Shown here one piece after another: positions 3,142 through 61,935 of a stretch of 64,000 nt of DNA. Positions within the stretch are counted from its first letter, which is position 1, and every line of letters starts with the position of its first letter. The position numbers and the translations under genes were made by a program. The notes below the pieces were generated by a model that was not told where the DNA came from, ran no database searches, and saw only the letters and a list, made by a program, of their open reading frames with translations. This stretch comes from a virus: positions 92,697-156,696 of the IMG/VR virus record IMGVR_UViG_3300045738_002037, one strand, 5' to 3'.

Positions 3142-3524
3142 TACGATGTAGACAAAGAAACAACTGGGTCAACAGCATGATTGGCGTACCCCGCAGAGCC
3201 AACCTGTAACAGCCCTGGCAATCGTAACCATTCTTGTTGACCATGATTCCAACCAGTTTGCTGGCCGGAACCACTTTCGAGTCGAGTTACAGACTCACCG
3301 GTTAAAGCTGCCTGAGCTTCTGCCGTTGTAACCCTGGCTTTATCATCTTTAACTACAGTAATGTTCGATGGATATGCTATTTTGCCTTCTTTGTTTGGCG
3401 GCACTTGCACAAAACCATTAATAATTGGAAAATCCCTGTATATGTAAATATTAGCCATATTATTTTTCCCTATGTGTTTAAACATCTCCCCATGTGATTC
3501 ATAATTTATGTTTGGTCGGGCCAA
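3141..3524 (-). CDS. hypothetical protein, possibly structural
   Basis: 127-aa ORF overlapping the end of the giant gene and coupled to the next gene. Confidence 0.65.
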   Translation of the reverse strand: MARPNINYESHGEMFKHIGKNNMANIYIYRDFPIINGFVQVPPNKEGKIAYPSNITVVKDDKARVTTAEAQAALTGESVTRLESGSGQQTGWNHGQQEWLRLPGLLQVGSAGYANHAVDPVVSLSTS

Positions 3525-19363: not shown

Positions 19364-19416
19364 AAATATACCGTCTTTCAATAGTTTAAAATATAATGCT
19401 ACTAATAGATTTGAAT

Positions 19417-21953: not shown

Positions 21954-22739
21954 TCATTCTGCTATTTTTAAAAATTGTTCATAACTTTCTTTAAAAATAT
22001 CCTGTTTATTCAGTCCATCAGAAATTCTTTTTCCAAGACCAAACTCCATAAAGTACCAACCATTATAGCCAATTCCTTTAGAATCATCAATGGTTTGTTT
22101 TATCATAGAGTCGCCAACGCCAACAACTTTAAACCCATATCCTATTTTATAGTCCCTAACATCAATCGCTGCGACGAATTTTCTAATATTTTTCCAATAT
22201 TTATCAAAGGGATTTATGTTTCTTTTAGTAATTAATTGCACTGGGTCATATAATAGCCGCCAGTGCCTATTATTGCCCAACAATTCTAATATAATTGGAA
22301 TATCATGGCTATATGGAAAATCATCGGTTATTTCAAACAATGGAATAATACCAGCTTTAGCGCATTCGGAGGCAATCAACGCCATCCAATCATTTATAAT
22401 GTCTTTATTTCTACTGGCGTTTTTTATTCCACCGAATATTCTAACATAATTAGCTTTGAAATATCTTGTAATAGATAAAGTTCTATCAATTGTTTCTGAA
22501 GATATATTTCCTAAATCATTACAATCAATAAGACCGAGGTTAGACGCAACCATCGGGACAGATAAGGAATACTTATCAATTATTCCTTTAAGCTTTTGAC
22601 ACGTAGAATCGCTAAGATCGCAAATATTGCCGGTCCAAACTTGGCGAATTACAACATGTTTAATATCACATTCCTGCAAAGTTTGACATGCTACATCTGG
22701 GGTATCGCCTGCGTCATTTAAATAGGCTGCTATTTTCAT
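21954..22739 (-). CDS. xylose-isomerase-like (AP_endonuc_2) TIM-barrel protein, divergent
   Basis: YVRIFG, PLFEI, LLYDPVQ, IDVRDYK, GVGD and GYNGWYFME match the sugar-phosphate isomerase/epimerase pattern; overlaps the purZ-like stop. Confidence 0.75.
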   Translation of the reverse strand: MKIAAYLNDAGDTPDVACQTLQECDIKHVVIRQVWTGNICDLSDSTCQKLKGIIDKYSLSVPMVASNLGLIDCNDLGNISSETIDRTLSITRYFKANYVRIFGGIKNASRNKDIINDWMALIASECAKAGIIPLFEITDDFPYSHDIPIILELLGNNRHWRLLYDPVQLITKRNINPFDKYWKNIRKFVAAIDVRDYKIGYGFKVVGVGDSMIKQTIDDSKGIGYNGWYFMEFGLGKRISDGLNKQDIFKESYEQFLKIAE

Positions 22740-23851
22740 AAATACGCCACATGGTCAATTTGTGGCCCAGTGCCCACAATAGTCACTGGCAACAACACCA
22801 AATCTTCGATCATTTCGATGAATTCTTGAACTTTTGCCGGTAATTTTCCGTAATCGTTGGTCCCATAACATGACCAATCAATATAATTAGCAAAATTTAA
22901 CGCGATCTTTGTCGCACCATTTACTACAACAGCTTCTTGTAATTGAATTTTAGAAAGCGAAAACACTCGGCGTAACCTTTTGGTCACTGTGGTAAGTTCA
23001 CCTTTCATTACTTCTGGAGGCGCGCCTGCGGTTTCAGCAACTTCGGCCCATGTGATCTCTTGATGGTCATCATAACAATCACCCGAATACCCAACAGTTT
23101 CTCCATTTTCCACCACATTGCCGACCCTAATGGGATATGGCCTAATTACTAAATATACGTCTCCAACTTTATAAGGCGAAACGCCCATATCGGCTAAATT
23201 GTAAACAGCAGTTGTGCCTCTGCTAGTACAATGGGGATAGTGGGATCCGTGATTTATATCTAACGAAAACCCCTGCGCGCCTTCATGCAATATCGTGTTG
23301 CCATCATTCATTAGCTTATTTAAATGTGTTGGCATGTAATAATCTTTAACGTTTGGAACATATGGCAATAATTCTTTATAGTCTCTAGCAAGCTTCAGTC
23401 CCGGTTTTCTCATTGCTTTATCTGCTAAAAAGGCACCACAGCCTTGCATCGTGCTAGCAACACTTTTCGTTCCAGTTTTTAAATTCTCCTCTGCTTCTTT
23501 ATGCTCATGCGTGATCACACCGGCTCTGGGGTGTATCACAGTATTTTCAGCCACATCGCATTCATCTATTTCTTTTAGCATCTGGTCAATGGTGAACGCG
23601 GCTGAAGGCCCAACTAGTATAGATGGGCTATATTCTCCATCGGTCCATTTTTTTAAAATGGCAGCGGAGGGCAGCGCTTTAGCCACAAACGCATCGCCGT
23701 TGATATTGATCGCCGTATGGCCAGCATTGGCCATGTTCGTGGTAGAAAGGACTTCTGGTTTATACCGGTCAGCCAACGCAGAAGTAATTAAGCCCTTCCC
23801 ACAGCTTCCCCATTGCCCATCTGTTATAATATTAAATTTCCCTGCTTGCAT
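22736..23851 (-). CDS. purZ: PurZ-type adenylosuccinate-synthetase homologue (putative N6-succino-2-amino-dAMP synthase)
   Basis: DGQWGSCGKG has Ser at the PurA catalytic Asp position. Also NAGHT, EGAQGFSL, YPHCTSR, YPIRVG, ELTTVTKRLRRVFS, and LNFANY (NFxN in place of the PurA [NT]KxD GTP motif). 371 aa. Confidence 0.8.
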   Translation of the reverse strand: MQAGKFNIITDGQWGSCGKGLITSALADRYKPEVLSTTNMANAGHTAININGDAFVAKALPSAAILKKWTDGEYSPSILVGPSAAFTIDQMLKEIDECDVAENTVIHPRAGVITHEHKEAEENLKTGTKSVASTMQGCGAFLADKAMRKPGLKLARDYKELLPYVPNVKDYYMPTHLNKLMNDGNTILHEGAQGFSLDINHGSHYPHCTSRGTTAVYNLADMGVSPYKVGDVYLVIRPYPIRVGNVVENGETVGYSGDCYDDHQEITWAEVAETAGAPPEVMKGELTTVTKRLRRVFSLSKIQLQEAVVVNGATKIALNFANYIDWSCYGTNDYGKLPAKVQEFIEMIEDLVLLPVTIVGTGPQIDHVAYL

Positions 23852-23912
23852 TATATAGTCTCCATAAATAAATCAGCATAAATTAAATACGCACTAAATA
23901 TTATAAATAGCG

Positions 23913-25279: not shown

Positions 25280-25675
25280 TCACTTAGAAGATAATTCTAT
25301 AACTTTTTTGATAGCTTCGGAACTATCACAAGTTTTAAATACTATAGGATTATTTTCATCAGTCAAATAATGAAATGATGTGGGTACATAGTCCTCTTCT
25401 TCCATTAAAATAACTATTGGTATATTTTTAGCATATGCATAGCCAAATTCAAAGTGTGATCCTTTTCTTGCTGGCGTAACCATTAAGATACAGTCAGAAT
25501 CATCCACCCCCCTAACCTCTGCCAAAGCGATATTCATCAATTCACTTTCGTCATCACAAAAACCGTGGAGCGTCCAATCATAAGTTATAGTAACGCCATG
25601 TTCTATTAACTGATCTCTCAGTTGGCGAACTCTATCTTTATTATTAAGGCTAGACGCTATATAAACGTTTTTCAT
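25280..25675 (-). CDS. nucleoside 2-deoxyribosyltransferase / nucleotide N-glycosidase family protein
   Basis: VYIASS, GVDDSDCIL, GSHFEFGYAYAKNIPIVIL (catalytic Glu motif of the NDT/DNPH1 family). Confidence 0.85.
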   Translation of the reverse strand: MKNVYIASSLNNKDRVRQLRDQLIEHGVTITYDWTLHGFCDDESELMNIALAEVRGVDDSDCILMVTPARKGSHFEFGYAYAKNIPIVILMEEEDYVPTSFHYLTDENNPIVFKTCDSSEAIKKVIELSSK

Positions 25676-29732: not shown

Positions 29733-30271
29733 GTGCCATAGCCGGATTTAGTAAAGAATTGATTAGCTTGGCCCATCATTAATCCTTTTGCTCTATGCGG
29801 GTATTCTATATTATTTCCCGTAGAACCAGTTAAATTAACATAGCCATTAATATGGTTAGACAAAACTCTAATTATAAACGCTACAACTCTTCTAGGAGTA
29901 GATTGTCTTCTAGCGCCACCATAACCATGCTGAGGCGATTCTATTATACCATTATTGATTTGCCTAGACAAATCAATTAAATCATCATGATGTGACTCAC
30001 CAAGATACATTCGATGGTTGCTGAGAGCAAATAAATTCCAACCAAGAATTGCCTTGCCAACAGCGGGGTCAAGCTCTACAACATGCGGTTTAATCTCTAT
30101 TTTATTTGCCAATTGAGGAATCATCATTGGCAAATCTTGCATTAAAGAAGGATGTAACATGCGATCGAAACTCTCGCTAAAGCCCTTCTCCATAAAATAA
30201 TGTATTAATAGCCTACGAACAACCTCTGAATTCGTAGCGTGCTTAATATTGTCAACCGTGCGCGAGTCCAT
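29729..30271 (-). CDS. hypothetical protein
   Basis: 180 aa; AGGAG SD upstream. Confidence 0.7.
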   Translation of the reverse strand: MDSRTVDNIKHATNSEVVRRLLIHYFMEKGFSESFDRMLHPSLMQDLPMMIPQLANKIEIKPHVVELDPAVGKAILGWNLFALSNHRMYLGESHHDDLIDLSRQINNGIIESPQHGYGGARRQSTPRRVVAFIIRVLSNHINGYVNLTGSTGNNIEYPHRAKGLMMGQANQFFTKSGYGT

Positions 30272-30305: not shown

Positions 30306-32123
30306 TTATATAGATTCTACCACTGAAAATCTGTTAGATCGTTTTACCAACAATTCTTTCGGAAAGACATCTTGCATCATATTACGATGAGATATAATCA
30401 ATATTGATTCAATCCTACTAGATAAATCATTCTTAATGATATTGATTAATGATTCAATGCCATCATCATCCATCCTACCGTCAACTTCATCTAAAACAAG
30501 AACATTACACTGACGACCATACATTTGTTCATGAAGGTCAAACATCGCAAGCATAAAAGCTACATCGGTCCTTTTTCTCTCTCCCCCCGATTGAAATTCA
30601 TAACCCCACATGTTACTAGACACACTTAATGATTTAGTCAAACTAATTTGGATGTCCAGCCCAAAAACACCTAAATAATGTTTCAGCCTATCATTAATAT
30701 AAGGAATATGCTCTTCAAACACATGGCTTTTAATTTTGTTTCTGTCATTATAAACTCTATAGATGTAATTATAATGAGAATACAATATAGCATTGCGCCC
30801 CATGTCTTTTTTAATTTCCTTTTTTTCTTCCTTTAAATTGTTGATTTGTTCCTGCATCGAATTTATCGTGCTAGTATGGGGATTATCCTCAGATTGAATA
30901 TCTTCAAGTTGCTTTTTAAGCCTATTAATCTCTTTATCATGTCGCTCATATTGATCATGTAAAGATTTGGCCTCTATCATATTAGTATCTGGTTTTTTAT
31001 TTTCCAACAATTCTTGCGCATTAGATATTGTCTTCTTAAATTTATCGATCTCCACATTAACAGACTTAATGTTCAAATTATAGTCATTTAATTGTTGTCG
31101 TAATACAACAATTTTATCATTAGTGTGAGAATGCGGGATTTCTTGTTCACATTCCATACACACATTTCCAGACTTTTCTTCCCATAATTCGATCTTACTA
31201 TTGATAACACCGGCTTCAGCAGCAATGGCCGATAATTCTGCGATTTTAGAATTAACTTGCTCTTGCAATATATTGATCTTATCACTAATCTTAGCGATAA
31301 GATCCCATCTTTTTTGTAACTTATCTAAGTCTAATAAATTGATAGAATCTCTACTTAATATTTCCTGTTTAATTAAATCATTGCAACTATCGATTCGCTG
31401 TTTCCTTTTATCCTCATAGCTTTCTGTTGATTCTTTAATCTTCAAAATTTCTAATTCAAAGCTTTGTATATTATTGTTTATTATTTCCAATTTTTTATTA
31501 TTAACAATAGAATCATTGTCAATAACGGCACATTTATCCTTAGCGATAGCAGCATAGTAGCTAAAACGATCAACATGCAATGTCCGCTCTATAGCCTTTT
31601 TCCTAGTATTATCCGCCATTTCCAACCATGGTCGACCATACTGTGTGAAAAATACTGAACCACAAAATAGCTCCCAATCTAAATTAAACGCCCTCTCTAA
31701 TTCAGACTGTTGATTTCTGGCAGTTGATAATGTTGCGCCAATGGTCTGGTTCTCATCGCCATCCTTAACATAAATAAGTTCATTTTTGCCATCTGTATTG
31801 CGTGTGCGAGTGACACTATCACCATTCTTAAATTTCACAGTGACAGCACAATCTTTCCCAGAATAATAATTAACAACCTTATCGCCTGGACTGGCGGAAT
31901 GCATGGTCTTACCGAACAAGCACCATAATATCGCATTGGGTATACATGATTTTCCAGCGCCGTTGGATCTATTCTTGTTAATATCTTCAGCGTATGGAGA
32001 CTCTAATTCTTCTTGAATCTCCCCTACTATTAAGCACTGGCCAAGATTAGATAATTCTATGGTGGTCTGGTAATCACCATATGACATAAAATTCTTAAAA
32101 GTAACTGAGTCTAATTCTATCAT
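30306..32123 (-). CDS. Rad50/SbcC-like recombination ATPase (T4 gp46-like)
   Basis: FKNFMSYG, Walker A NGAGKS, coiled coil with CMEC zinc hook, signature SGGERKR, Walker B LVLDEVD, ISH. Confidence 0.93.
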   Translation of the reverse strand: MIELDSVTFKNFMSYGDYQTTIELSNLGQCLIVGEIQEELESPYAEDINKNRSNGAGKSCIPNAILWCLFGKTMHSASPGDKVVNYYSGKDCAVTVKFKNGDSVTRTRNTDGKNELIYVKDGDENQTIGATLSTARNQQSELERAFNLDWELFCGSVFFTQYGRPWLEMADNTRKKAIERTLHVDRFSYYAAIAKDKCAVIDNDSIVNNKKLEIINNNIQSFELEILKIKESTESYEDKRKQRIDSCNDLIKQEILSRDSINLLDLDKLQKRWDLIAKISDKINILQEQVNSKIAELSAIAAEAGVINSKIELWEEKSGNVCMECEQEIPHSHTNDKIVVLRQQLNDYNLNIKSVNVEIDKFKKTISNAQELLENKKPDTNMIEAKSLHDQYERHDKEINRLKKQLEDIQSEDNPHTSTINSMQEQINNLKEEKKEIKKDMGRNAILYSHYNYIYRVYNDRNKIKSHVFEEHIPYINDRLKHYLGVFGLDIQISLTKSLSVSSNMWGYEFQSGGERKRTDVAFMLAMFDLHEQMYGRQCNVLVLDEVDGRMDDDGIESLINIIKNDLSSRIESILIISHRNMMQDVFPKELLVKRSNRFSVVESI

Positions 32124-33720: not shown

Positions 33721-35478
33721 TTAACCTTCGTCTATTAAGGCTTCTTTAAACCAATCCGGAAGCATCTTATCGGCATCTCGCAAAAATTTGTATATCGCCT
33801 CGTCAATAATATAAGTCTTCGCCCAATCGTCAACACTTCTGACGCTACGGCCATATGATTGCACAAGCTTTAAAGCCGTCAACCATACGTAATATTTTCT
33901 ATCAACTTCAACCCTAGCAGCAAGTTGCTTATCATCAAAGCAATTAGCATATGGAATTTTACAAATAATCTGAAATCTACTTAAATCATCATATAAATCC
34001 ACACCTTCATGCATGGCTGGCGCTATAATAACACCATTGTGACTTTTAGCATGCTCTTCTAACATATACTTCTTGTTGTTATAGTAATCACGCTGAAAGA
34101 AAAATCGATTTCTAATATACGGATCGCATTTTTCCTTCAACAAGTTCGCTATTGCAAAATTGTGAGTGTGAACTATGCCGCGCTCCTCACTGTGTTCTGC
34201 CATTATGTCATTTACTGCGGCTACTAATTTGTCTCCCCATTCGCTATGCATCTTCTTTACACCACCAACCATTCTCGCAGCGGGCCTAATAAAAATCGGC
34301 CTATTTTCAACAGGAAATCTGTTCTTCATCCGGTAAGCAGCTATTTCATCCCTGTTCAATCCTAAAGACTTACACATCACACCGACATCAAGAACAGTAG
34401 CGCTCATCATGAGTATTCTATCAGCATACTTAAACAACAAACTATCAGCATAATTCTGAATGAAAATCGGTTTTAATGTTACTGACTTATGAGAAGGTTG
34501 GCCATATTCGCCGCCGGTTTCCTTATATTCCACTATCCAGTTGCTACCCGACTCTTCAACGTGATCTACAAACATTTGAAACTTATGGTGAAGCCTCTTA
34601 ATTTCATCTTCAAGAGCAGTATCTTCTGATTCACGAGCTTGCATGATAATCTGATTTAAGACATTTGGAATATCACAATCAGCATACCATTCGGCATACT
34701 TATAGGCATTATCATACTCTGGAATTTCAACACCATGTTTTTGCAATTGAACGTCGTTCAATGTTACTGACACAAAATCCAATAATTGCGGTTCTACATT
34801 ATGACATTCATCAATAATCAGCATGCCTCTTGGCTCATCAAACCTTTTCGTCATTTGAGTTTGATATAAAAAGCTTGAAAAATTCATAACCACATTGTGA
34901 TTATTAATAGCTTGATAAACCTGTTCATAATAAGGGCATGCGCTATATTGAGACCCAGCAGGTAATACTTCCAAATATCCCGCTACTGGCCCGCTTGGAG
35001 TAAAACAATCAAGACATTTATAACCTTGTTTCCGTTTTCTACAAAATCCGGCATCACAACTTGATCTTTCAGATAGTGCTTTAGATAATGACTTCTTAGT
35101 CATCAATTTTCTATCAATAAGCTTATCGCCCATTCTCTCATAAAACGTGCATGGATAAGCATTGCGGCCTTTTAATTCGGTAACATCGTCAAAGTCGCTA
35201 GCCAACTGATCTTGCAATATTTTAGTGATGGTTAAATAGTAAGCGTTTCTGGAAAGATTGGCCATCGCCATCCCTATAGGCGACTTGCCGCTGCCAGTCG
35301 GGCATTCTAAAATAACTAATTTTTTACCATCTAAAAATGCCTTTACCGCAAACTCTATAACTTCTTTTTGTCCATCCCGATAGTTTTCTTTTGGGAAACA
35401 ATCATCAATATGCGAAAGCGGGTCGTCGGCGTATCGATGATCCCAAAATTTCTGTCGAATTTCTGTCTTCACAAGCAT
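33721..35478 (-). CDS. DinG/XPD-family SF2 helicase
   Basis: Q motif YRDGQ, CPTGSGKS, LKGRNAYPC, Cys cluster with CPYY, IIDECH, MSAT, EGVD, LVQSYGRSVRS. Confidence 0.9.
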   Translation of the reverse strand: MLVKTEIRQKFWDHRYADDPLSHIDDCFPKENYRDGQKEVIEFAVKAFLDGKKLVILECPTGSGKSPIGMAMANLSRNAYYLTITKILQDQLASDFDDVTELKGRNAYPCTFYERMGDKLIDRKLMTKKSLSKALSERSSCDAGFCRKRKQGYKCLDCFTPSGPVAGYLEVLPAGSQYSACPYYEQVYQAINNHNVVMNFSSFLYQTQMTKRFDEPRGMLIIDECHNVEPQLLDFVSVTLNDVQLQKHGVEIPEYDNAYKYAEWYADCDIPNVLNQIIMQARESEDTALEDEIKRLHHKFQMFVDHVEESGSNWIVEYKETGGEYGQPSHKSVTLKPIFIQNYADSLLFKYADRILMMSATVLDVGVMCKSLGLNRDEIAAYRMKNRFPVENRPIFIRPAARMVGGVKKMHSEWGDKLVAAVNDIMAEHSEERGIVHTHNFAIANLLKEKCDPYIRNRFFFQRDYYNNKKYMLEEHAKSHNGVIIAPAMHEGVDLYDDLSRFQIICKIPYANCFDDKQLAARVEVDRKYYVWLTALKLVQSYGRSVRSVDDWAKTYIIDEAIYKFLRDADKMLPDWFKEALIDEG

Positions 35479-35538
35479 TATCCTTATATTAAATAGTTCT
35501 CAAATACTAGTAGTATTTAAAAGAATTAAGGAGACAAT

Positions 35539-36633
35539 ATGTCAAATAAAATCATAATCGCGGCTGACACGCACTTCGGTGTACAAGGAAGACTTGACGA
35601 TATTTTATGGTCAGTCAGAGTAATAAGGGAATATTGCCGCCTGGCAGACATTAATACGGTGATAATAGCTGGCGATTTATTCCACGACAGAAAATCAATT
35701 GATATTGAAGTAATGAGTAAAACTTGTGATTTCTTCGAAGAAACACAAGAAAAATTTAACCAACAGTGGATTGCGTTCCCAGGCAACCACGATATGTTCT
35801 TGCGCCATTCGTGGGACATCAACAGCCTGCGCGCAATGAGCAAGCATATGACAATCATAGAAGATGTCAAAATACTAAAAATAAATGACACAAGATTTTG
35901 GATATTGCCTTTCATCACATATGAAAAATCTTATATGCGGGTATTGGATAAAATTAATGAACAATACCAAGAAGGAGATATCCTCCTTACCCATATTGGC
36001 GTAAAAGGAGCCGTATTAAACTCATGCTTTTTACTTAAAGATTGGTCAACGGTATCGTTCGAAGACAGTCCGTTTCATCGAGTTTATACTGGACATTTTC
36101 ACTGTCAACAACAAGTTGGAGAAAATGTATGGTACCCCGGCTCACTAATACCATTTAAATTCGATGAAGGAAACATTTCCCACGGTTTTTATGTTTATGA
36201 TCTAGACGAAGATTCTCATAAATTTATTAATATATGGAAAGCTGGAGCGAAATTCTTCCCAGACGAACCAGCACCACCACAATTTTTAACAATCACTGAT
36301 GACAGCATTGAGAAGATAACAAGTGAAGACGTATCTGGTAATCTTGTTAGAATAGCTCTATCACGCGATTACGCCCATAGCGACAAACAAGAATTTAAAG
36401 ATTATATAATGAACTTAGGAGCTAAAGCCGTCAGGTGGATGCAACTAAAAGAAAAACAAATTGACATAAAACCACAAGAAACAGCACTTAATAATAAAGA
36501 CCTTTTCGTAACGTATATCGAATCCGACGATAAAGGCACTAAGGAATTAAATTTAAAAATTCTAAAAAAATTAAATGAAGACGTTATGAAAGAAGGCGAT
36601 GAAAAATACGCCGTAGACAGCCAGAATTATTAA
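35539..36633 (+). CDS. Mre11/SbcD-like nuclease (T4 gp47-like)
   Basis: ADTHFG, AGDLFHDR, PGNHD, GHFH, YPGS metallophosphoesterase motifs; AGGAG SD. Confidence 0.92.
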   Translation: MSNKIIIAADTHFGVQGRLDDILWSVRVIREYCRLADINTVIIAGDLFHDRKSIDIEVMSKTCDFFEETQEKFNQQWIAFPGNHDMFLRHSWDINSLRAMSKHMTIIEDVKILKINDTRFWILPFITYEKSYMRVLDKINEQYQEGDILLTHIGVKGAVLNSCFLLKDWSTVSFEDSPFHRVYTGHFHCQQQVGENVWYPGSLIPFKFDEGNISHGFYVYDLDEDSHKFINIWKAGAKFFPDEPAPPQFLTITDDSIEKITSEDVSGNLVRIALSRDYAHSDKQEFKDYIMNLGAKAVRWMQLKEKQIDIKPQETALNNKDLFVTYIESDDKGTKELNLKILKKLNEDVMKEGDEKYAVDSQNY

Positions 36634-36684: not shown

Positions 36685-37245
36685 TTATGGGAGAGGCGTA
36701 TCTGGATATCTTTGAAAAAGCCAGAAAATAACAGCATTCACAATATTTTGCGAATCATATAAAAACAATTTTTTCATGGGACCCTGCCAGCAGTTGCCTG
36801 GTTCATCCCATCGACCGGGCTTCGACCAAAGAAACCCACTTCCCCCACTTCTTGCCACCGAAACAACACCGTGATTACGACGGTTTAAAATGAATTTTCC
36901 GTAAAATTCTCTCCATGGATAGCCAGATTTTAATTGTCCTTCGACACCACCTTTGTCAAGATGTCCATAAATTGCTTCTCCTCGAATTAAGCATTTTATG
37001 TCTGGAATTCCAAATGTATCTTCTATATTATCTAACGGATTATCTAAAACAGAAATTTCTTCTTCTTCACGTTCAATTTCAACATTTCTAACAAATATGA
37101 TCCGACGTTTTAATGGACGAGGGTCATTTGGATAGTTCGGGGAAATATAGTTACCATGTACTTTTGGGCTGCCCATAACGGAAATTATGTCATTGAACAG
37201 GGGATGCTGAAAGCTTCCCTCATTTAGTATTCGCGAAAGTTTCAT
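36685..37245 (-). CDS. MKLSRILNE-leader protein with internal NPLDNIED tag
   Basis: First 25+ nt identical to the start of 37242..37892; internal DNPLDNIEDTF. Confidence 0.75.
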   Translation of the reverse strand: MKLSRILNEGSFQHPLFNDIISVMGSPKVHGNYISPNYPNDPRPLKRRIIFVRNVEIEREEEEISVLDNPLDNIEDTFGIPDIKCLIRGEAIYGHLDKGGVEGQLKSGYPWREFYGKFILNRRNHGVVSVARSGGSGFLWSKPGRWDEPGNCWQGPMKKLFLYDSQNIVNAVIFWLFQRYPDTPLP

Positions 37246-37892
37246 TTATATTTTTCATAATGTCTATTAAAGACCGGGAACACAATTATATCTATTATAT
37301 TGCCAATCGCATTGGTTGACACGCTCGGCGAATAACCAGCTTCAATTTGCACATCTTTCTCGTCTGCACCAATCCTTGGTTCGGGAGTAAGATGTGCTTC
37401 AAACTCTCCGTAAAACGGTTGGTACGCACCCGACTGGAAACGACGTTGCCGGAGGTCCTTTTTGGGGAGCGCATCGATGTTTCGCCGCTGGGGTAATAAA
37501 TCCGTTGGAATAGGAACTGTAGTAGAAAATTGTCCATAAATCTTACAGGGAATTATTTCTATATCACCCTCAAATTCATCGGCATCTTCAAGATCCGCAT
37601 ATTCACCGTTTAGTGGGTTTTCGGATGTTTGAGGGTCAAATGATATAGAATGATCGGCAGGCAAAGCACTAAGATCGGGCAAAGCACTAAGATCGGGCAA
37701 AATAACAATATCCTTGATTTTTATGTCATACCCAACAGCAAACATCCAGTGGTCAACCACATTAATAGGCCCAGGTATATCAAATTTATAAGCAGCCCAA
37801 TGATCATAATCTGGATATGGCGTGGTTTTGAATTGTACACGTTCCCATTCTTTGCGAGCCGTTTCTTCATTTAGTATTCGCGAAAGTTTCAT
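37242..37892 (-). CDS. MKLSRILNE-leader protein with internal NPLNGEYADLEDADEF tag
   Basis: Paralogue-like to the downstream gene (C.IxG, SG..xxFYGxF); contains an 18-bp tandem repeat (LPDLSA x2). Confidence 0.75.
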   Translation of the reverse strand: MKLSRILNEETARKEWERVQFKTTPYPDYDHWAAYKFDIPGPINVVDHWMFAVGYDIKIKDIVILPDLSALPDLSALPADHSISFDPQTSENPLNGEYADLEDADEFEGDIEIIPCKIYGQFSTTVPIPTDLLPQRRNIDALPKKDLRQRRFQSGAYQPFYGEFEAHLTPEPRIGADEKDVQIEAGYSPSVSTNAIGNIIDIIVFPVFNRHYEKYK

Positions 37893-37929
37893 ATTCTATT
37901 TTTGATACTCCAATAAGTATTTAATTAAT

Positions 37930-38580
37930 GACGGTTCCCAACAACCGTTAACAGAGAAAGTTTCTGTTACATAGCGGAACAATTATCCGCTGAGTTTTCA
38001 TTATGTTTGGGATGATCGAATCGGTTTTTAGAGTGTTCTTTCCAGTTCGATCAAGCAATCACAGGAAGTGGTTAGTAAAAAGCAACACTTGGACGCGCAC
38101 ATGCTGATAAAGATTATCAGTGTCCGAATTTTCCCAAACCTCTAATGAGCTGTTCAATAATTTTGTTGGGACTGATCGATATAATGACGACAGAAGTTTG
38201 ACAACGCCTGAATACTAAAAGATTGCACGGAAGCTTGATTCGGTCCCTCTCTTGACCATCTCTAAAACATTTGCCAATATCTTGAATTTGCCAATCTTAT
38301 TTCTGTCGGTGGGTATCGACAATCACTTAGTAATTATTGACGGCAAATCGACACTTCCGAGACACCAAAGGATTGATAGAGTGTACGGCTCCGTTGGCGC
38401 GGAGTGATAACGGCGGAAGTACGGCGTAAGGTTCGACCAACAACTAAGCTCTCCCCCCTAACTGGCTAATGTTGGTGCTCCCTTGCGATCCATCTTGGCA
38501 TCAGTGTGATACCGAAATCATATTAGTCGCAAGATCGTTTTTCGTTTTTAAAGTTTTTTACTAACGGGAACGGGGGGAGC
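37930..38580 (+). ncRNA. putative large structured non-coding RNA (~650 nt), family unassigned
   Basis: No ORF of 60 aa or more in ~700 bp of an otherwise densely coding genome. More than 12 nested perfect 6-9 bp stems and three crossing pairings. G-U extensions and an upstream GTATTTAAT favour the + strand. Confidence 0.7.
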
Positions 38581-38596
38581 CAAAATATATTAACTA

Positions 38597-39028
38597 TCAA
38601 TTTCCATGAGTTATGCGTATATCCAACGGGGGTTCACCGGGGATCCATCCGTCATCGGTATACCAAGCGTGACCGGCCATGCCTTTGACCACAATGGCCC
38701 ATTCATTTTCATTATTAATTTCTATTTCATAAGTGTCGTCGATCCCCCAATGTTCGTTTTTAGGATCATCTATTGTTGTTATATAATCCAGCGACTCACC
38801 GTCGTCTATATATAATGTTCCAAGCTTGCCATGGCCCGCCGCAGTATATCCAGCTTCAACATTGTAATAATTGAGTGTGCCTGCGAGGTCGGCTTCCACC
38901 GTGTCGGCAAAGACGTTTTTCTCGAACTCATCGGCATCTTCAAGATCCTCATACTCATCGTCTAACGGATTAACTTCATCCGGATCTTCCGTTATCATCT
39001 TAGCTATTTGTTTAGGGTCAACATTCAT
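38597..39028 (-). CDS. tag-family protein (type B tag, NPLDDEYEDLEDADEF)
   Basis: Start reassigned to ATG 39028 (MNVDPKQIAKMITEDPD). Confidence 0.8.
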   Translation of the reverse strand: MNVDPKQIAKMITEDPDEVNPLDDEYEDLEDADEFEKNVFADTVEADLAGTLNYYNVEAGYTAAGHGKLGTLYIDDGESLDYITTIDDPKNEHWGIDDTYEIEINNENEWAIVVKGMAGHAWYTDDGWIPGEPPLDIRITHGN

Positions 39029-39041
39029 GCAATATAACTGT

Positions 39042-39362
39042 TTAATAATCCCAAGATCCTGTCCCACATGTCGGACACTCGATCATTCTTGTCAAATCCG
39101 TTTGCATAGCATCTTCTGGGTCAGACCAATTAAATGATTCATATCCTTCTACGTCGAATCGATCACTTTTATCCACACATTTATCACACCAAGGAGAATC
39201 GCATCTACAATAAAACATTTCCCCTGACCAATAGCTTTTAGCACAACCACTACAAAAATCATGTCCTTCCGGAACAAATGTATCTTCTATATTATCTAGC
39301 GGATTGATCTCATCCGGATCTTCCGAAATCATTCTGGCTATTTTTTTGGGGTCAATTTTCAT
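39042..39362 (-). CDS. tag-family protein with 8-Cys zinc-finger payload
   Basis: Start ATG 39362 (MKIDPKKIARMISEDPD); CSGC..CRC..CDKC..CPTC. Confidence 0.8.
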   Translation of the reverse strand: MKIDPKKIARMISEDPDEINPLDNIEDTFVPEGHDFCSGCAKSYWSGEMFYCRCDSPWCDKCVDKSDRFDVEGYESFNWSDPEDAMQTDLTRMIECPTCGTGSWDY

Positions 39363-41356: not shown

Positions 41357-43459
41357 ATGGCTGATGAAATCAAAATACAAGGTCTTACGTCATTAAATTG
41401 TGATCTGGCTAAAAGACTACCAATAAATCCCGAAAACGGGGATGAAATATGCGATAGTTATGGCAATAGATATAGATTTAATGGCAAGACTAACACGTGG
41501 ATTTTTATTGGCGCTGTGCTTGTTCCGCCAACAGTTACAGAATCCATCGACGGTGTTATTACTCCAAAAATATTTGAAAAATTAAGGCATGTTGAAAATA
41601 TTCTGGCAAACGGCGTTGATTTTTCACAATTTAAAATATTTCCGGGTATAGAAGGTTATTGGTATTATTTTCGCAGCAGCGATAAATTAATAAAATTCGA
41701 TGTGGAAGGTGAGGATCAATTACGAATTGAAATTGATTCTGGAAGATTTCATCAGATAATAGCTAAAAGAAGTTGTAAAGGCCAATTTGGCGATAAAGGA
41801 ACGACCGGCGAAGATGGAGATCCGGGAGACAGTTCTCCATTAGAAAAATTTTATATTCCGTCTAATATAGATGAAGACAAGATTGATTTCGCGATCTTTA
41901 CCCCAAGCCCATTAGACACTCCAATATCACTCAGGTTAATAAAATGCGAAGACTCTAGCATTACCAACAATTGCGGTAGTGGCGAACTAATTAAAATTGT
42001 TAATGATGAATATCAAGCATTGCCAAAGAGTCAGACTGAATATTTTACAGAATTAATAAGAGATTTTAAATCTAGCGTTGACAATCGCACCATAGACCAA
42101 TTAGATAATCTTAAAAGATTCATTGCTGACAAATCATTGGGGTCATTTGCCGACGTAGATTTAAATATACCTTTAAGTAAAATAAGGTATATGGCAGAAG
42201 ATGATCCACGTTGCCGTGTTTCGACTACCGCAGAAGAACCAGATATAATAATATTAATAGATCCTAAAAACAATGTGCCGCCCACAGTAACAATAAAAGA
42301 AGAAGAATTTGAAATAGATGAAGAAAGAACATTTGCGGCATTAAAATATGACAAAGATATTGGCGTTCTAAGTGGAACGGTTTATTTAAAGAGGAAAACT
42401 TGGGTAGAACTCGGCAAATGGTGCATAAAATCCAAGCAAAAAGGTCCCGTAGGATCGGACGGCATAGACGGCCTTTGCACGCTTGAAATAATTAAAGACA
42501 CCATAGACCCTACAAGTATCTTCACTTTATGTCCTATTGTAAATGTTAGATATGATAATGATAAAGATATAATTTATACATTATGCAGTGACATTGGAAC
42601 TGCTACTTGCGCAGAATATATAATATTGGTGGCTGACTCAGCTGATACTACCAACGAAAATGCTATCAAAAGCAGATTTGCGGCTGTGATTCGTTCTCTT
42701 GATGAATGTAAAGATGTTACTGAATATAGAATATCATTTGAAGACGACGATATTCCAGCATTAACGTTTTCACATTGGGACCCACAACCCGGCTGCCAGA
42801 CTTCAAGACATTATGACAGGCATAAATTTGATTGGTTTGTTGACACAGAAAGCAGAATAAAAGAAGGGCAAGAAAAACCACAATGGTATAGCCCAACTGA
42901 ATGTTTAACGATTGACTATCCGCATAAGATCATCGCTGCGTCAAAACCAGAAGAACAATGCTGCACTGAAGAATTTTTTTATTGCCCAAATATTCAAGAA
43001 GCACCTGCCGAATGTGGAGAAGACGGCGAATTCACTATTGAAGTCAATACAACACCTCCGCCGACCACCACCACCACCACAACTACAACTGGCGCACCTT
43101 CGGGAGGGCAATTAGACATAGTAGCTTTTTGTCTTGCCAACGATGCAGCCTGCGCGCCCTATCCTTCGTGTACACCTGGTTCGATTATAGCAGATTGGGG
43201 TACGGCTGTTCCTGGGCAAAAGTGTTATGATGGTTTCATTTGGAACGTCACAAAAGATGAAGCTCATCGCAATCTTTTGGGCAATCTCCCCCCCGGCGGT
43301 TATAACCAAATTTTCTACGGGTCTTCCGCTATTACTGACAATGATGAATATCAAGTTAGAATGCGGTTTTATGATGGTTTATTGACACTGAGCAGTCCGC
43401 GCTCTTGCACTGGAAACCTGATTACCTACGGAGAAAGCAATATATTTTCATGTGAGTAG
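41357..43459 (+). CDS. probable virion structural protein (Cys-rich, short collagen-like Gly-X-Y stretches, poly-Thr linker)
   Basis: KGQFGDKGTTGEDGDPGDS, KGPVGSDGIDG, PPPTTTTTTTTT; N-terminal PINPENGD..YRFNGKTNTW. Confidence 0.6.
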   Translation: MADEIKIQGLTSLNCDLAKRLPINPENGDEICDSYGNRYRFNGKTNTWIFIGAVLVPPTVTESIDGVITPKIFEKLRHVENILANGVDFSQFKIFPGIEGYWYYFRSSDKLIKFDVEGEDQLRIEIDSGRFHQIIAKRSCKGQFGDKGTTGEDGDPGDSSPLEKFYIPSNIDEDKIDFAIFTPSPLDTPISLRLIKCEDSSITNNCGSGELIKIVNDEYQALPKSQTEYFTELIRDFKSSVDNRTIDQLDNLKRFIADKSLGSFADVDLNIPLSKIRYMAEDDPRCRVSTTAEEPDIIILIDPKNNVPPTVTIKEEEFEIDEERTFAALKYDKDIGVLSGTVYLKRKTWVELGKWCIKSKQKGPVGSDGIDGLCTLEIIKDTIDPTSIFTLCPIVNVRYDNDKDIIYTLCSDIGTATCAEYIILVADSADTTNENAIKSRFAAVIRSLDECKDVTEYRISFEDDDIPALTFSHWDPQPGCQTSRHYDRHKFDWFVDTESRIKEGQEKPQWYSPTECLTIDYPHKIIAASKPEEQCCTEEFFYCPNIQEAPAECGEDGEFTIEVNTTPPPTTTTTTTTTGAPSGGQLDIVAFCLANDAACAPYPSCTPGSIIADWGTAVPGQKCYDGFIWNVTKDEAHRNLLGNLPPGGYNQIFYGSSAITDNDEYQVRMRFYDGLLTLSSPRSCTGNLITYGESNIFSCE

Positions 43460-50426: not shown

Positions 50427-50450
50427 GTATTTAATCCTAAAAGACTAAAC

Positions 50451-51146
50451 ATGAACAATATAATCATTAGATATGTTACGCCAGAAGCGATAATATTTGA
50501 ATTAGAAAAACCCCATGATATTTACTTGCTATGCGAAATCAATGGAGTTTTTAAAATTTACGATGATAAATTAAATAAAATAATTACCCCAAATGCAAAC
50601 GAATGGGTTAAATCTCATTCTAACAGCTCATTAGAATTACTTTTAAATTTAGCAAGAACATTTCGAGATGGAATGCAGTGTTCTTATAATGGTGGCGATA
50701 TTTTAGAATATCTAGTGTTATTTAGCATATTAATTAAAAACTCTATATTCCATAGCGAATTGGCAAGTAAATATGCAAGCGTTTATTTTATAGAAATATG
50801 CGACCCAGATGATGTGCCAGAAGTAATTGATGGAATCAGAAATAATTGGGATGAATTGCTAGATAAATTTGGCGAAAAAGAACTGTTAAACAATCTTCAT
50901 AGATGGGTACGATTTTGCAATTATAACTGCCCGGACAATACTATAATTTTTGAAAAATTCGTGAATAGATTGGGCGAAGGTGTTTCGCCGCCGTCTTATC
51001 CAAACACAGCTGAACACGATGAAAAATTGGCAAGTGATGTTTTAAAAAGTGTTGGCAAAGATTTAAAAGAATATAAAAATGTTCCCAATGAAATACTAGA
51101 ATTAGCGCATGAATTTAAAGCCAAAAGATTACAAAGGACCACTTGA
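50451..51146 (+). CDS. hypothetical protein
   Basis: 231 aa; overlaps the dnaE-N start. Confidence 0.65.
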   Translation: MNNIIIRYVTPEAIIFELEKPHDIYLLCEINGVFKIYDDKLNKIITPNANEWVKSHSNSSLELLLNLARTFRDGMQCSYNGGDILEYLVLFSILIKNSIFHSELASKYASVYFIEICDPDDVPEVIDGIRNNWDELLDKFGEKELLNNLHRWVRFCNYNCPDNTIIFEKFVNRLGEGVSPPSYPNTAEHDEKLASDVLKSVGKDLKEYKNVPNEILELAHEFKAKRLQRTT

Positions 51147-52578
51147 GTTCTGTCATCTTCACAATCACACCCTTTTTTCAGTTCTTGATGGGGTTGCTTC
51201 GCCCGAGCAATATGCTGAGCAATGTTATAAACGTGGCTATCCGGCAATGAGCGCCACAGAACATGGGCATATGGCATCTGTTCCAGATATGTATTTGGCA
51301 TTCCAGAAATATGGGGTTAAGTACATTCCGGGGTGTGAAATTTATTTTAATGATTATGAATATGGCACTAATTTTGAAAATGTAGAAAATCGTCAAAATT
51401 TTATTAAAAATGATGGTAAAATTAGACAGCTTAGAATAGATAACCCCTATTTATACGAACGATATGCACGAAACCGCCATTTAACAATATTAGCAAAAAA
51501 TCAAATTGGATTTGAAAATTTATTAAAACTGACAACTCAAGCACACAATGATCAATACGGCGCGGGGCGAACAAAATTTCCAAGAATTGGCTTTGAAAGA
51601 CTTTGCAAATTCAAAGAAGGATTAATAATATTATCAGGATGTTTAAACGGGCCAGTGGCTCATGAACTTAGACTAAAGCAAATTAAATCATTCGGAAAAG
51701 ACGAAGAAGGAAATAGAACATCCGAAATAGTGTGGGACAGCGATGAAGATCATTGGGGCGAAGTTGGTAGATTTAAAGCCGCTGCTAAATGGGTAAAAGC
51801 ATTCCACGACGAATTTGGCGAGGATTATTTCATAGAACTGCAAATGCCTGGGCTTCCAGAATTGCATGATGACGAAGTATTTCAAAAACTCATAGCGTTG
51901 GCCGATCATTATAAAATAAAGACAATTTTGGCGAATGATTGCCATTATTTAAACAGAGAAGATTTTATTTTACAAAAAATTATGATGGCTGTAGTTCAAG
52001 ACACCACCATAGATGACCCAAATTTGTTTCATGTGAACAGCGACGAACAATTCATGAAAACAAGAGCTGAATTGTGGGCGATGTTTAAAAACAATGGTTA
52101 CAGCAAAGGCATGGGCGACAGTGTGTTTGAAAACATGTGTGATAATACTCTATTAATAGCTGACAAATGCGAAGCATTTTCTATTGACACATCCCCTAAA
52201 ATTCCAGAAGTTGATGATGCTGTTGTAAAACTAAAAAGCATAGTGGCTAAAAAACTCTATAAATTGGGACTGCATAAATCCACTGAAAAGTTTTTTATCG
52301 ACGGCAAGGAAGTCACTTACGTTGAACAAGCGTCTATTGAATTAAAAAGATTCATTGACAAAGGATTTGCAAGTTACTTTTTGATTACAAGAGAACTGGT
52401 GCAATATGGAAAAAAGAGAGGCTGGCCGTTTAGTCCAAGAGGAAGCGCCGGTGGATCGTTAGTTTGTTATTTATTAGATATACATGTTATTGATCCGATG
52501 AAGTGGGGGCTGTCTTTTGATAGATTTTTATCGCCATCTCGCGGTGGATATATGCTAGATATTTCTATGCCAGCTTAA
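51109..52578 (+). CDS. dnaE: DNA polymerase III alpha, N-terminal part only (PHP domain + start of palm)
   Basis: HLHNHTLFSVLDG, TEHG, GCEIY, HLTILAKN, LSGCLNG, NDCHY, GFASYFLI, RGSAGGSLVCYLL, FDRFL; ends at ISMPA-stop after 489 aa. Confidence 0.9.
   Translation: MNLKPKDYKGPLEFCHLHNHTLFSVLDGVASPEQYAEQCYKRGYPAMSATEHGHMASVPDMYLAFQKYGVKYIPGCEIYFNDYEYGTNFENVENRQNFIKNDGKIRQLRIDNPYLYERYARNRHLTILAKNQIGFENLLKLTTQAHNDQYGAGRTKFPRIGFERLCKFKEGLIILSGCLNGPVAHELRLKQIKSFGKDEEGNRTSEIVWDSDEDHWGEVGRFKAAAKWVKAFHDEFGEDYFIELQMPGLPELHDDEVFQKLIALADHYKIKTILANDCHYLNREDFILQKIMMAVVQDTTIDDPNLFHVNSDEQFMKTRAELWAMFKNNGYSKGMGDSVFENMCDNTLLIADKCEAFSIDTSPKIPEVDDAVVKLKSIVAKKLYKLGLHKSTEKFFIDGKEVTYVEQASIELKRFIDKGFASYFLITRELVQYGKKRGWPFSPRGSAGGSLVCYLLDIHVIDPMKWGLSFDRFLSPSRGGYMLDISMPA

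Positions 52579-61861: not shown

Positions 61862-61935
<74 letters not shown>

What the first reader, a model, noticed from the sequence alone, without database searches (positions are those of the whole stretch)
37930..38580. Unannotated ~650-nt multi-domain, pseudoknotted RNA inside the tagged-gene island
Seen: three 5' hairpins (37931-36/37943-48, 37949-55/37963-69, 37973-78/37986-91). Domain 1 is closed by 37998-38003/38143-48 and 38005-12/38132-39, with inner stems 38013-20/38046-53 and 38101-10/38114-23 (two G-U pairs). Domain 2 is closed by 38154-62/38332-40, with 38188-95/38301-08 and 38219-25/38292-98 inside. Domain 3 is 38353-59/38414-20. Domain 4 is 38451-58/38572-79, with 38482-88/38527-33 inside. 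Three crossing complementarities suggest pseudoknots: 37936-44/38163-71 (9 bp), 38286-92/38342-48 and 38436-42/38470-76. The element runs antisense to its flanking genes and follows GTATTTAAT (37917-25). Known: phages carry large ornate RNAs (GOLLD, ROOL) of similar size. I cannot assign a family, and I see no RNase P, tmRNA or group I/II intron signature. Inference: a member of such a class or a new one.
Basis: partly seen in the sequence, partly recalled or inferred. Interest (0 to 1): 0.85.

Follow-up and report, generated by a model that had tools for sequence, protein, structure and literature searches.

The report
New large folded jumbo-phage RNA
The gene-free 0.7 kb is a real gene for a roughly 650-base, intricately folded non-coding RNA with three knot-like long-range contacts; it matches no catalogued RNA family, occurs exactly once in every related giant phage examined, and its function is unknown.

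Summary
Window 37893-38596 has no ORF under any genetic code tried. It holds a + strand structured RNA of about 650 nt (about 37930-38581).

Thirteen are kept by compensatory changes in 24 distinct homologues from uncultivated jumbo-phage and aquatic metagenome contigs. These include the two boldest claims:
- the H1 loop pairing about 230 nt downstream (PK1);
- the CCCCCC/GGGGGG contact (PK2).

I added P6, P8, P9, P10, H5 and a third pseudoknot (PK3).

Formal counts:
- 69 pairs are 92% paired, against 37-46% when the partner is slid. 59 pairs change on both sides, and 0 of 500 shuffles reach this.
- G-U pairs outnumber A-C cells 197 to 55, so the + strand is the RNA.

A model of the 3' core finds exactly one copy in each of 10 related phage records, including a complete 408-kb genome. 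No true copy turned up among the pattern matches in representative genomes of about 185,000 prokaryote species. Rfam 15 matches neither the window nor nine homologues.

A conserved GTATTTA motif, which also precedes SbcD and helicase genes, sits just upstream and is probably the promoter. Expression data could not be obtained.

First readers of this scan flagged one homologue on other DNA (e1-5791344, e1-5791332), with no follow-up yet.

Verdict: a new family of large ornate phage RNA, mechanism unknown.

The parts
37917..37923 (+). GTATTTA promoter-like motif, 7-8 nt upstream of the first hairpin
   Evidence: The motif is conserved at the same distance in 21 of the 24 homologues whose 5' end is held. 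In the window, 4 of its 9 occurrences lie within 80 nt upstream of ORF starts on the right strand, where 3.6% is expected (P = 2e-4). In related loci it precedes the 605-613-aa ORFs, which I take without testing to be the helicase homologues. Promoter function is inferred.
37930..38581 (+). The RNA gene as a whole, about 650 nt. The 5' end is inferred from the motif. The 3' end is taken as the last covarying pair and is not mapped.
   Evidence: Homologues run 570-800 nt between the same landmarks. There is no ORF. Covariation is shown.
37931..37948 (+). H1 hairpin (37931-36/37943-48). Its loop, 37937-42 CCCAAC, is the 5' strand of PK1.
   Evidence: 5 of 6 pairs change on both sides (helix 1).
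38163..38171 (+). 3' strand of PK1 (UUGUUGGGA). It lies in the junction between P5 and P6 and pairs with 37936-44.
   Evidence: Each lineage carries a different complementary pair. Examples are CCCAAC/GUUGGG, UGUUGGUA/UACCAACG, UUCCAGG/CCUGGAA, GACUAACG/CGUUAGUU and CCCUAU/AUAGGG. 6 of 6 pairs change on both sides (helix 2).
37949..37991 (+). The optional hairpin H2 (37949-55/63-69), the nearly invariant CAUAG (37970-74) and hairpin H3 (37973-78/86-91).
   Evidence: All 5 H3 pairs covary (helix 3). H2 is present in about half of the homologues with unrelated sequences.
37997..38149 (+). 5' domain. It holds P2 (37997-38003/38143-49), P3 (38005-12/38132-39), P4 (38013-20/38046-53), pseudoknot PK3 (38031-37 in the P4 loop with 38084-90), H5 (38057-62/38068-73) and H6 (38101-10/38114-23).
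   Evidence: Per-lineage complementary pairs are listed. For P3 the median fraction of shuffles reaching the observed duplex is 0.0075. In P4, 6 of 7 pairs change on both sides (helix 4).
38150..38343 (+). Central domain. It holds P5 (38150-62/38332-43, with one bulge) and P6 (38176-82/38313-19). These enclose a variable insert (38183-12) containing the helix 38188-95/38301-08 and two copies of ATTTGCCAAT (38269-78 and 38286-95).
   Evidence: 7 of 7 P5 pairs and 5 of 7 P6 pairs change on both sides (helices 5 and 6). The insert is 46-191 nt long in homologues. Seven rows (six different phages) carry direct repeats specific to their lineage.
38344..38491 (+). Conserved 3' core. It holds the invariant AAnUCGA, P7 (38353-59/38414-20), P8 (38362-66/38379-84, with loop CUGAUAG), P9 (38388-94/38399-405), P10 (38426-31/38481-86), the invariant UUCGA (38432-36) and P11 (38437-42/38470-75).
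   Evidence: 38 invariant positions fall here. Model R1 scores the window at 128.5 bits. 97.6% of cells are paired and 24 of 30 pairs change on both sides.
38451..38458 (+). 5' strand of PK2 (CUCCCCCC), inside the loop closed by P11.
   Evidence: Lineage variants are kept complementary: CUCCACC/GGUGGAG, CCUUCCCC/GGGGAAGG, CCCCAC/GUGGGG and CUUCCCCCAUACA/UGUAUGGGGGAAG.
38572..38579 (+). 3' strand of PK2 (GGGGGGAG), the last conserved element of the RNA.
   Evidence: It is followed at a fixed distance by a conserved UAU of unknown meaning.

Best explanation
This is a stand-alone gene for a trans-acting, highly structured non-coding RNA of about 650 nt. It founds a family confined, as far as I searched, to one uncultivated clade of jumbo phages of about 360-410 kb.

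Expression (inferred): it is probably transcribed from its own GTATTTA-type promoter. The same motif precedes the phage's SbcD gene and, in relatives, the ORFs that by size and position appear to be the helicase homologues, so the RNA would be made together with the DNA-metabolism genes.

Architecture (shown by covariation): the transcript folds into three parts.
- A 5' domain: P2-P4, H5 and H6, locked by pseudoknot PK3.
- A central pair of long-range helices, P5 and P6, around an insert of variable length.
- A nearly invariant 3' core: P7-P11, locked by pseudoknot PK2.
- The loop of the 5'-terminal hairpin H1 pairs with the junction strand between P5 and P6 (PK1).

Mechanism (inferred): it works through this tertiary fold, not by coding and not by antisense pairing to its neighbours. 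My best guess is a self-assembling RNA particle of the ROOL/GOLLD kind, in which PK1 either docks H1 within one molecule or bridges neighbouring molecules (about 35%). A ribozyme (about 20%) and a protein-binding RNP core or decoy (about 25%) remain open. The confidence given is for the claim that this is a genuine structured RNA gene of a new family, not for the particular mechanism.
For: No ORF under four codes.

Sequence-level homologues lie on the same strand as SbcD in phages whose SbcD proteins are only 55-62% identical. There are 24 distinct homologues after the metagenome scan.

Covariation:
- 69 pairs in 11 helices are 92.1% paired, against 37-46% for slid partners.
- 59 pairs change on both sides.
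- The covariation score is 0.616 against 0.10-0.14 for slid partners, and 0 of 500 shuffles reach it.
- In the core alone, 97.6% of cells are paired and 24 of 30 pairs change on both sides.
- PK1, PK2, PK3, P2, P3, H5 and H6 are each kept by lineage-specific complementary sequences.

Strand: 197 G-U cells against 55 A-C cells, including a nearly invariant G-U that closes P9.

Folding: z = -3.5 against a mean of -0.8 for coding controls.

Distribution: exactly one copy in each of 10 phage records, including a genome that CheckV rates 100% complete at 408 kb.

Trans action: the neighbours differ between phages and in the window are on the opposite strand.

Promoter motif.

Precedent for covarying loop-junction pairs being intermolecular: GOLLD L20-J13/15 and ROOL L8-J6/8 (PMC12286853, read).
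Against: No transcript has been seen. The 5' and 3' ends, and expression itself, are inferred.

No intrinsic terminator follows the element in the window.

Nothing in the sequence tells an intramolecular PK1 from an intermolecular one. No catalytic or ligand-binding motif was recognised, so the mechanism is a guess by analogy.

Unlike GOLLD and ROOL, the RNA is not near tRNA genes. The only tRNA in the window is 23 kb away.

The homologue set was collected with one strict core pattern, so the true spread of the family is unknown.

The A3 alignment is a plain MAFFT alignment with misaligned variable parts. The A5 alignment is fitted to the model and so leans towards its structure.
Confidence: 0.85

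Rival explanations
1. It is a ribozyme. The invariant junction nucleotides of the 3' core (AAnUCGA, CUGAUAGAG, UGAnnnnGGC, UUCGACC, GGUGCUU) would form an active site. The activity might be self-processing at the conserved flanks, or action on a phage or host RNA.
For: The pattern of covarying helices around about 38 invariant unpaired or junction positions, locked by pseudoknots, is what large ribozymes such as RNase P and group I and II introns show. That comparison rests on established knowledge. A conserved UAU lies at a fixed distance after PK2, and GUAUUUA lies before H1.
Against: No known ribozyme family matches, even at permissive thresholds. GOLLD, ROOL and OLE show the same conservation pattern without known catalysis (PMC12286853). 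The flank motifs are explained more simply as promoter elements.
Confidence: 0.2
2. It is the RNA core or decoy of a ribonucleoprotein. It would bind a phage or host protein, for example a polymerase, a nuclease or a ribosomal protein, and the lineage-specific repeats in the variable insert would serve as binding sites.
For: Seven rows (six different phages) carry exact direct repeats of 9-17 nt, each with its own sequence, at the same place in the structure. Examples are ATTTGCCAAT twice in the window and a 16-mer twice in L009. The gene sits among DNA replication and recombination genes. OLE RNA is an RNP (PMC12286853).
Against: More than half of the homologues have no significant repeat there. 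No protein gene is consistently adjacent. No known protein-binding motif was identified.
Confidence: 0.25
3. It is a diverged member of a known class that the Rfam models miss: an ORF-less group II or group I intron, or a distant GOLLD or ROOL.
For: Its size, multi-domain layout, long-range loop contacts and a more conserved 3' half recall group II introns and GOLLD (PMC12286853; own knowledge).
Against: Rfam gave no hit to any intron, GOLLD, ROOL, OLE, HEARO, RNase P or tmRNA model in the window or in nine homologues. ARAGORN found no tmRNA. The element does not interrupt a gene, its flanks differ between phages, and it lies between separate genes. I saw no hairpin like domain V with a GNRA loop. 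The conserved P9 loop reads NGGN.
Confidence: 0.05
4. It is a DNA-level element, such as a replication origin or a packaging or recombination site, whose inverted repeats act in DNA. Alternatively it is a cis-regulatory leader or an antisense RNA for neighbouring genes.
For: It lies beside helicase and SbcCD genes. The minus strand also folds below shuffles, z = -3.0.
Against: G-U pairs are tolerated and partly invariant on the + strand only: 197 G-U cells against 55 A-C cells. Long-range helices span up to 190 nt, and three crossing contacts covary. DNA hairpins do not need that. The downstream genes differ and in the window are on the other strand, and the RNA does not overlap the flanking ORFs.
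Confidence: 0.04

Closest known systems
GOLLD RNA (Rfam RF01998)
   Same: It is carried by phages and is large, many members exceeding 800 nt. [quoted passage not shown] A covarying loop-junction pairing (L20-J13/15) turned out to be an intermolecular bridge. Its function is unknown (PMC12286853).
   Different: No sequence or structure match to the Rfam model. The RNA here is not next to tRNA genes. It occurs in uncultivated aquatic jumbo phages of about 360-410 kb, in a DNA-metabolism gene block. Whether it forms oligomers is untested.
ROOL RNA (Rfam RF03087)
   Same: It is a phage and prophage RNA of about 600 nt with multiple pseudoknots and a variable, disordered linker region. It has a covarying junction-loop pairing (J6/8-L8) that is intermolecular in the nanocage (PMC12286853).
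   Different: No match to the model. The helices and conserved nucleotides are different, the phage group is different, and there is no nearby tRNA island.
OLE RNA (Rfam RF01071)
   Same: It is about 600 nt, ornate, with long stretches of invariant nucleotides among covarying helices. It works as an RNP and dimer (PMC12286853).
   Different: OLE is a cellular RNA of Bacillota with dedicated partner genes (oapA, oapB, oapC). The RNA here is phage-borne, has no conserved partner gene next to it and does not match the model.
phi29 prohead (packaging) RNA
   Same: It is a phage-encoded RNA whose loop-loop complementarity covaries and acts between molecules to build a ring. This rests on my own knowledge and was not checked here.
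   Different: pRNA is about 174 nt, belongs to small podoviruses and sits by the genome end. There is no sequence or Rfam match here.

Membership tests
GOLLD (RF01998) | Match to the family covariance model | tested here: not met
   No hit at gathering score in the window. No hit at E <= 10 in 37700-38800. No hit at E <= 1 in nine homologues.
GOLLD (RF01998) | Frequent position next to or around tRNA genes | tested here: not met
   The only tRNA in the window is at 61862-61935, 23 kb away.
ROOL (RF03087) | Match to the family covariance model | tested here: not met
   no hit.
ROOL/GOLLD | Homo-oligomeric RNA-only nanocage | not testable with these tools
   This needs native gels, mass photometry or cryo-EM. 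Only the covarying L1-J5/6 pairing is compatible with it.
Group II intron | Domain V/VI and D1-D4 models; insertion inside a host gene with exon flanks | tested here: not met
   No Rfam intron hit. The element lies between separate genes, and these differ among phages.
Group I intron | Match to RF00028; interruption of a conserved gene | tested here: not met
   No hit, and no interrupted gene.
RNase P RNA / tmRNA | Rfam models; for tmRNA, a tRNA-like end with a tag frame | tested here: not met
   No Rfam hit. ARAGORN finds no tmRNA.
Large ornate structured ncRNAs of phages (descriptive class) | More than 500 nt, no coding potential, many covarying helices and pseudoknots, phage-borne | tested here: met
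   About 650 nt, range 570-800 in homologues. No ORF. 15 helices plus 3 crossing contacts have compensatory changes. One copy in 10 of 10 phage records.

The most novel reading that the evidence does not exclude
The covarying pairing between the loop of the 5' hairpin H1 and the P5/P6 junction strand is intermolecular. If so, this RNA assembles head-to-junction into a closed homo-oligomer (a ring or cage). It would be a third, unrelated natural RNA-only nanostructure after ROOL and GOLLD, made by jumbo phages during DNA replication.
Probability: 0.2. Interest if true: 0.9.

Novelty: new variant of a known kind. Interest (0 to 1): 0.78.

Why it matters
Only a handful of bacterial or phage non-coding RNA classes exceed 500 nt with this degree of conserved structure: rRNAs, group I and II introns, OLE, GOLLD, ROOL and HEARO. 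Each has turned out to be a ribozyme, an RNP machine or an unexpected RNA-only assembly.

This family is single-copy and was found in every member examined of a jumbo-phage clade that has no cultured relative. The best match to a cultured phage is below 28% protein identity for the helicase. It is therefore likely to do something essential to that lineage.

The well-defined fold, with 15 helices, 3 pseudoknot-type contacts and a core of about 145 nt holding 38 invariant positions, makes it directly usable for chemical probing, cryo-EM and activity screens. The L1-J5/6 contact gives a clean two-mutant test for RNA oligomerisation.

Tried and rejected
- Alternative genetic codes (table 4, TAG=Q, TAA=Q) open no frame.
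- blastn of the element against 50,697 GenBank phage records found no match.
- The flanking 216-aa, 156-aa and 552-aa proteins have no relatives in IMG/VR by pattern search, so they gave no synteny. SbcD did.
- A second core pattern found fewer copies than the first.
- The strict pattern gave 44 matches in representative genomes of about 185,000 prokaryote species. All were GC-rich coding chance hits, and nhmmer found none related. 45 of the 70 metagenome hits were likewise chance.
- Literature searches for a described jumbo-phage large RNA found only GOLLD, ROOL and OLE work. One search failed on term syntax.
- I considered a UCGAA/UUCGA helix (38347-51 with 38432-36). One lineage compensates and two break it, so I left it unassigned.
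- I found no partner for the invariant CAUAG or for the UAU after PK2.
- The 10-mer repeated in the variable insert is not enriched in the window overall.
- Reader helices 38482-88/38527-33, 38219-25/38292-98 and 38286-92/38342-48 were rejected as conserved features.
- Sigma-70 promoter and intrinsic terminator scans did not exceed chance.

Full report
**What is there.** The window is part of a 156.7-kb IMG/VR virus record that CheckV rates 43% complete, so the full genome is about 360 kb. Between the minus-strand ORFs 37242-37892 and 38597-39067 lies a 704-nt stretch with no ORF longer than 51 aa. It has no long frame when TGA, TAG or TAA is read as sense.

The surrounding block is DNA metabolism:
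- SbcC-like, 30306-32123 (-);
- a DEAD_2/Helicase_C_2 helicase, 33721-35478 (-);
- SbcD-like, 35539-36633 (+);
- a DNA polymerase, 51109-52578 (+);
- a PurZ-like synthetase, 22736-23851 (-).

The closest cultured phages share under 28% identity in the helicase, so the lineage has no cultured relative.

**Checking the observation.** The stretch 37930-38581 folds at -193.4 kcal/mol. One hundred dinucleotide shuffles gave -168.5 ± 7.1, so z = -3.5 and none was as low. The reverse strand gave z = -3.0. Ten coding segments of equal length from the same window gave z between +0.3 and -1.7. The tool's own run on 37893-38596 gave -4.2 (+) and -3.1 (-) with 20 shuffles.

**Homologues.** The flanking small proteins have no relatives. 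SbcD brought in eight related IMG/VR contigs of 92-408 kb at 55-62% protein identity. nhmmer with the 704 nt alone found + strand matches in five of them, and a profile found a sixth.

I then scanned with a strict pattern drawn from the invariant core:
- IMG/VR gave one further contig.
- The metagenome collection gave 70 stretches. 25 are true homologues, and the rest are GC-rich coding chance matches.
- The same pattern in about 185,000 prokaryote species genomes gave 44 matches, all chance.

I built a covariance model of the 145-position core (R1). It finds exactly one copy, on the expected strand, in each of the ten phage records searched whole. Two of these have the RNA more than 10 kb from SbcD, and one is a 408-kb genome rated 100% complete. 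Across 285 kb of loci it gave 25 hits in 25 sources, 24 of them distinct. Contig names include TARA ocean scaffolds, so the family is at least partly marine.

**Structure and covariation.** RNAalifold on a plain MAFFT alignment of 26 rows already recovered long-range helices. I counted 69 pairs in 11 helices on that alignment:
- 92.1% of cells are standard pairs, against 37-46% when the 3' partner is slid by 1-3 columns.
- 59 pairs change on both sides.
- The covariation score is 0.616 against 0.10-0.14.
- No shuffle of 500 reaches any measure.

On the model-fitted core alignment, 97.6% of cells pair and 24 of 30 pairs change on both sides. That alignment leans towards the model, so the MAFFT figure is the fairer one.

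Helices that MAFFT misaligned were tested one sequence at a time, as the best duplex between the two homologous segments against 200 shuffles. P2, P3, H5, H6 and the three crossing contacts all hold, each lineage with its own complementary sequence. The three crossing contacts are:
- PK1: the loop of the 5'-terminal hairpin H1 (37937-42) pairs with the junction strand between P5 and P6 (38165-70). Variants include CCCAAC/GUUGGG, the strand-swapped UGUUGGUA/UACCAACG, UUCCAGG/CCUGGAA, GACUAACG/CGUUAGUU and CCCUAU/AUAGGG.
- PK2: the C-run inside the P11 loop (38451-58) pairs with the 3'-terminal G-run (38572-79). Variants include CUCCACC/GGUGGAG and CCUUCCCC/GGGGAAGG.
- PK3: 38031-37 in the P4 loop pairs with 38084-90. 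Variants include GUUCGUUU/AAACGAAU, AUUUCCU/AGGAAAU and GGGCCGUU/AACGGCCC.

In all I count 15 helices and 3 pseudoknot-type contacts. The 3' core (38344-38491) holds 38 invariant positions, mostly unpaired or in junctions: AAnUCGA, GAG, CUGAUAGAG, CGG, UGA, GGC, UUCGACC and GGUGCU.

**Strand, ends and independence.** Across the counted pairs there are 197 G-U cells against 55 A-C cells. The pair closing P9 is G-U in 24 of 26 rows. The RNA is therefore read from the + strand, the strand of SbcD in every locus.

GTATTTA sits 4-8 nt before H1 in 21 of the 24 homologues whose 5' end is held. In the window the motif is rarer than chance, with 9 occurrences against 17.7 expected. Four of the nine lie within 80 nt upstream of an ORF start on the right strand, where 3.6% is expected (P = 2e-4). 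These include SbcD at +20. In relatives the motif also precedes the 605-613-aa ORFs that I take, by size and position, to be the helicase homologues. I read it as the promoter of this phage group's DNA-metabolism genes. That is an inference.

No terminator was found after PK2, so the 3' end is not defined.

The ancestral order is SbcD, then the RNA, then a conserved 583-700-aa protein, then a GT2 glycosyltransferase. In the window, minus-strand genes have been inserted on both sides of the RNA. It therefore cannot be a leader of a downstream gene, and it overlaps neither neighbour.

**Comparison with known families.** Rfam 15 gives nothing: not at gathering score on the window, not at E <= 10 on the element, and not at E <= 1 on nine homologues. 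ARAGORN finds no tmRNA. So it is not a detectable member of GOLLD, ROOL, OLE, HEARO, group I or II introns, RNase P or tmRNA.

In kind it resembles GOLLD and ROOL most. It is phage-borne and 0.6-0.8 kb long. It has several pseudoknots, a strongly conserved 3' part, a looser 5' part and a variable linker. It also has a covarying loop-junction pairing. In GOLLD (L20-J13/15) and ROOL (L8-J6/8) such pairings proved to be bridges between molecules in RNA-only cages (PMC12286853).

It differs in having no tRNA neighbourhood, in its host phage group, and in every helix and conserved nucleotide.

**How it probably works.**
- Shown: it is a conserved, single-copy, + strand element under selection for a complex RNA fold.
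- Inferred: it is transcribed from its own promoter with replication and recombination genes, acts in trans and works through its tertiary structure.
- My best guess is a self-assembling RNA particle (about 35%). A protein-binding RNP core or decoy (about 25%) and a ribozyme (about 20%) are the alternatives. The sequence alone cannot decide between them.

**Earlier notes of this scan.** First readers flagged the L007 homologue in another genome (e1-5791344 and e1-5791332), with no follow-up yet. Other follow-ups report different new large RNAs in other jumbo-phage groups, several of them multi-copy. This one is strictly single-copy, and I could not test whether any of them is the same family.

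Noticed in passing
window 35513-35519, 50427-50433, 23884-23890 (-), 25336-25342 (-), 37917-37923; L002, L003, L005 and L006 upstream of the 605-613-aa ORFs: GTATTTA is depleted overall but sits 18-71 nt upstream of several gene starts. These include SbcD, a PurZ-like gene and, in relatives, ORFs that by size appear to be the helicase homologues. It also precedes the RNA. It is a likely promoter element of this phage clade.
   Followed up: partly
window 22736-23851 (-): A 371-aa ORF matches phrog_1211, a PurZ-like adenylosuccinate-synthetase relative, at E = 5e-63. This hints that the phage may make 2-aminoadenine (Z) DNA.
   Followed up: no
window 38269-38278 and 38286-38295; also 30104-30113 (+) and 30126-30135 (-): The variable insert of the RNA holds two exact copies of ATTTGCCAAT. 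Five other phages have their own 9-17-nt direct repeats at the same structural place. The same 10-mer also forms an inverted pair inside an ORF at 30104-30135. The meaning is unknown.
   Followed up: partly
window 38347-38350 and 38433-38436: Two invariant copies of the palindrome UCGA, within AAnUCGA and UUCGACC, flank P7 and P10. The second reads like a T-loop (UUCGA). Pairing between them is neither supported nor excluded.
   Followed up: partly
window 3506-19381 (-): A single ORF of 5291 aa.
   Followed up: no
window 41357-43459 (+); L002 12027-13778: A conserved 583-700-aa protein of no known family (37% identity between phages). It has a short collagen-like Gly-X-Y run and many conserved Cys. 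It is the ancestral downstream neighbour of the RNA and is followed by a GT2 glycosyltransferase.
   Followed up: partly
window 37653-37700 (inside ORF 37242-37892, -): An exact tandem duplication of an 18-nt unit gives a repeated LPDLSA peptide in the flanking 'tagged' gene.
   Followed up: no
window 37972-38001: Hairpin H3 followed by a U-rich run was flagged as terminator-like by the simple scan. The U-run is not conserved in homologues.
   Followed up: partly
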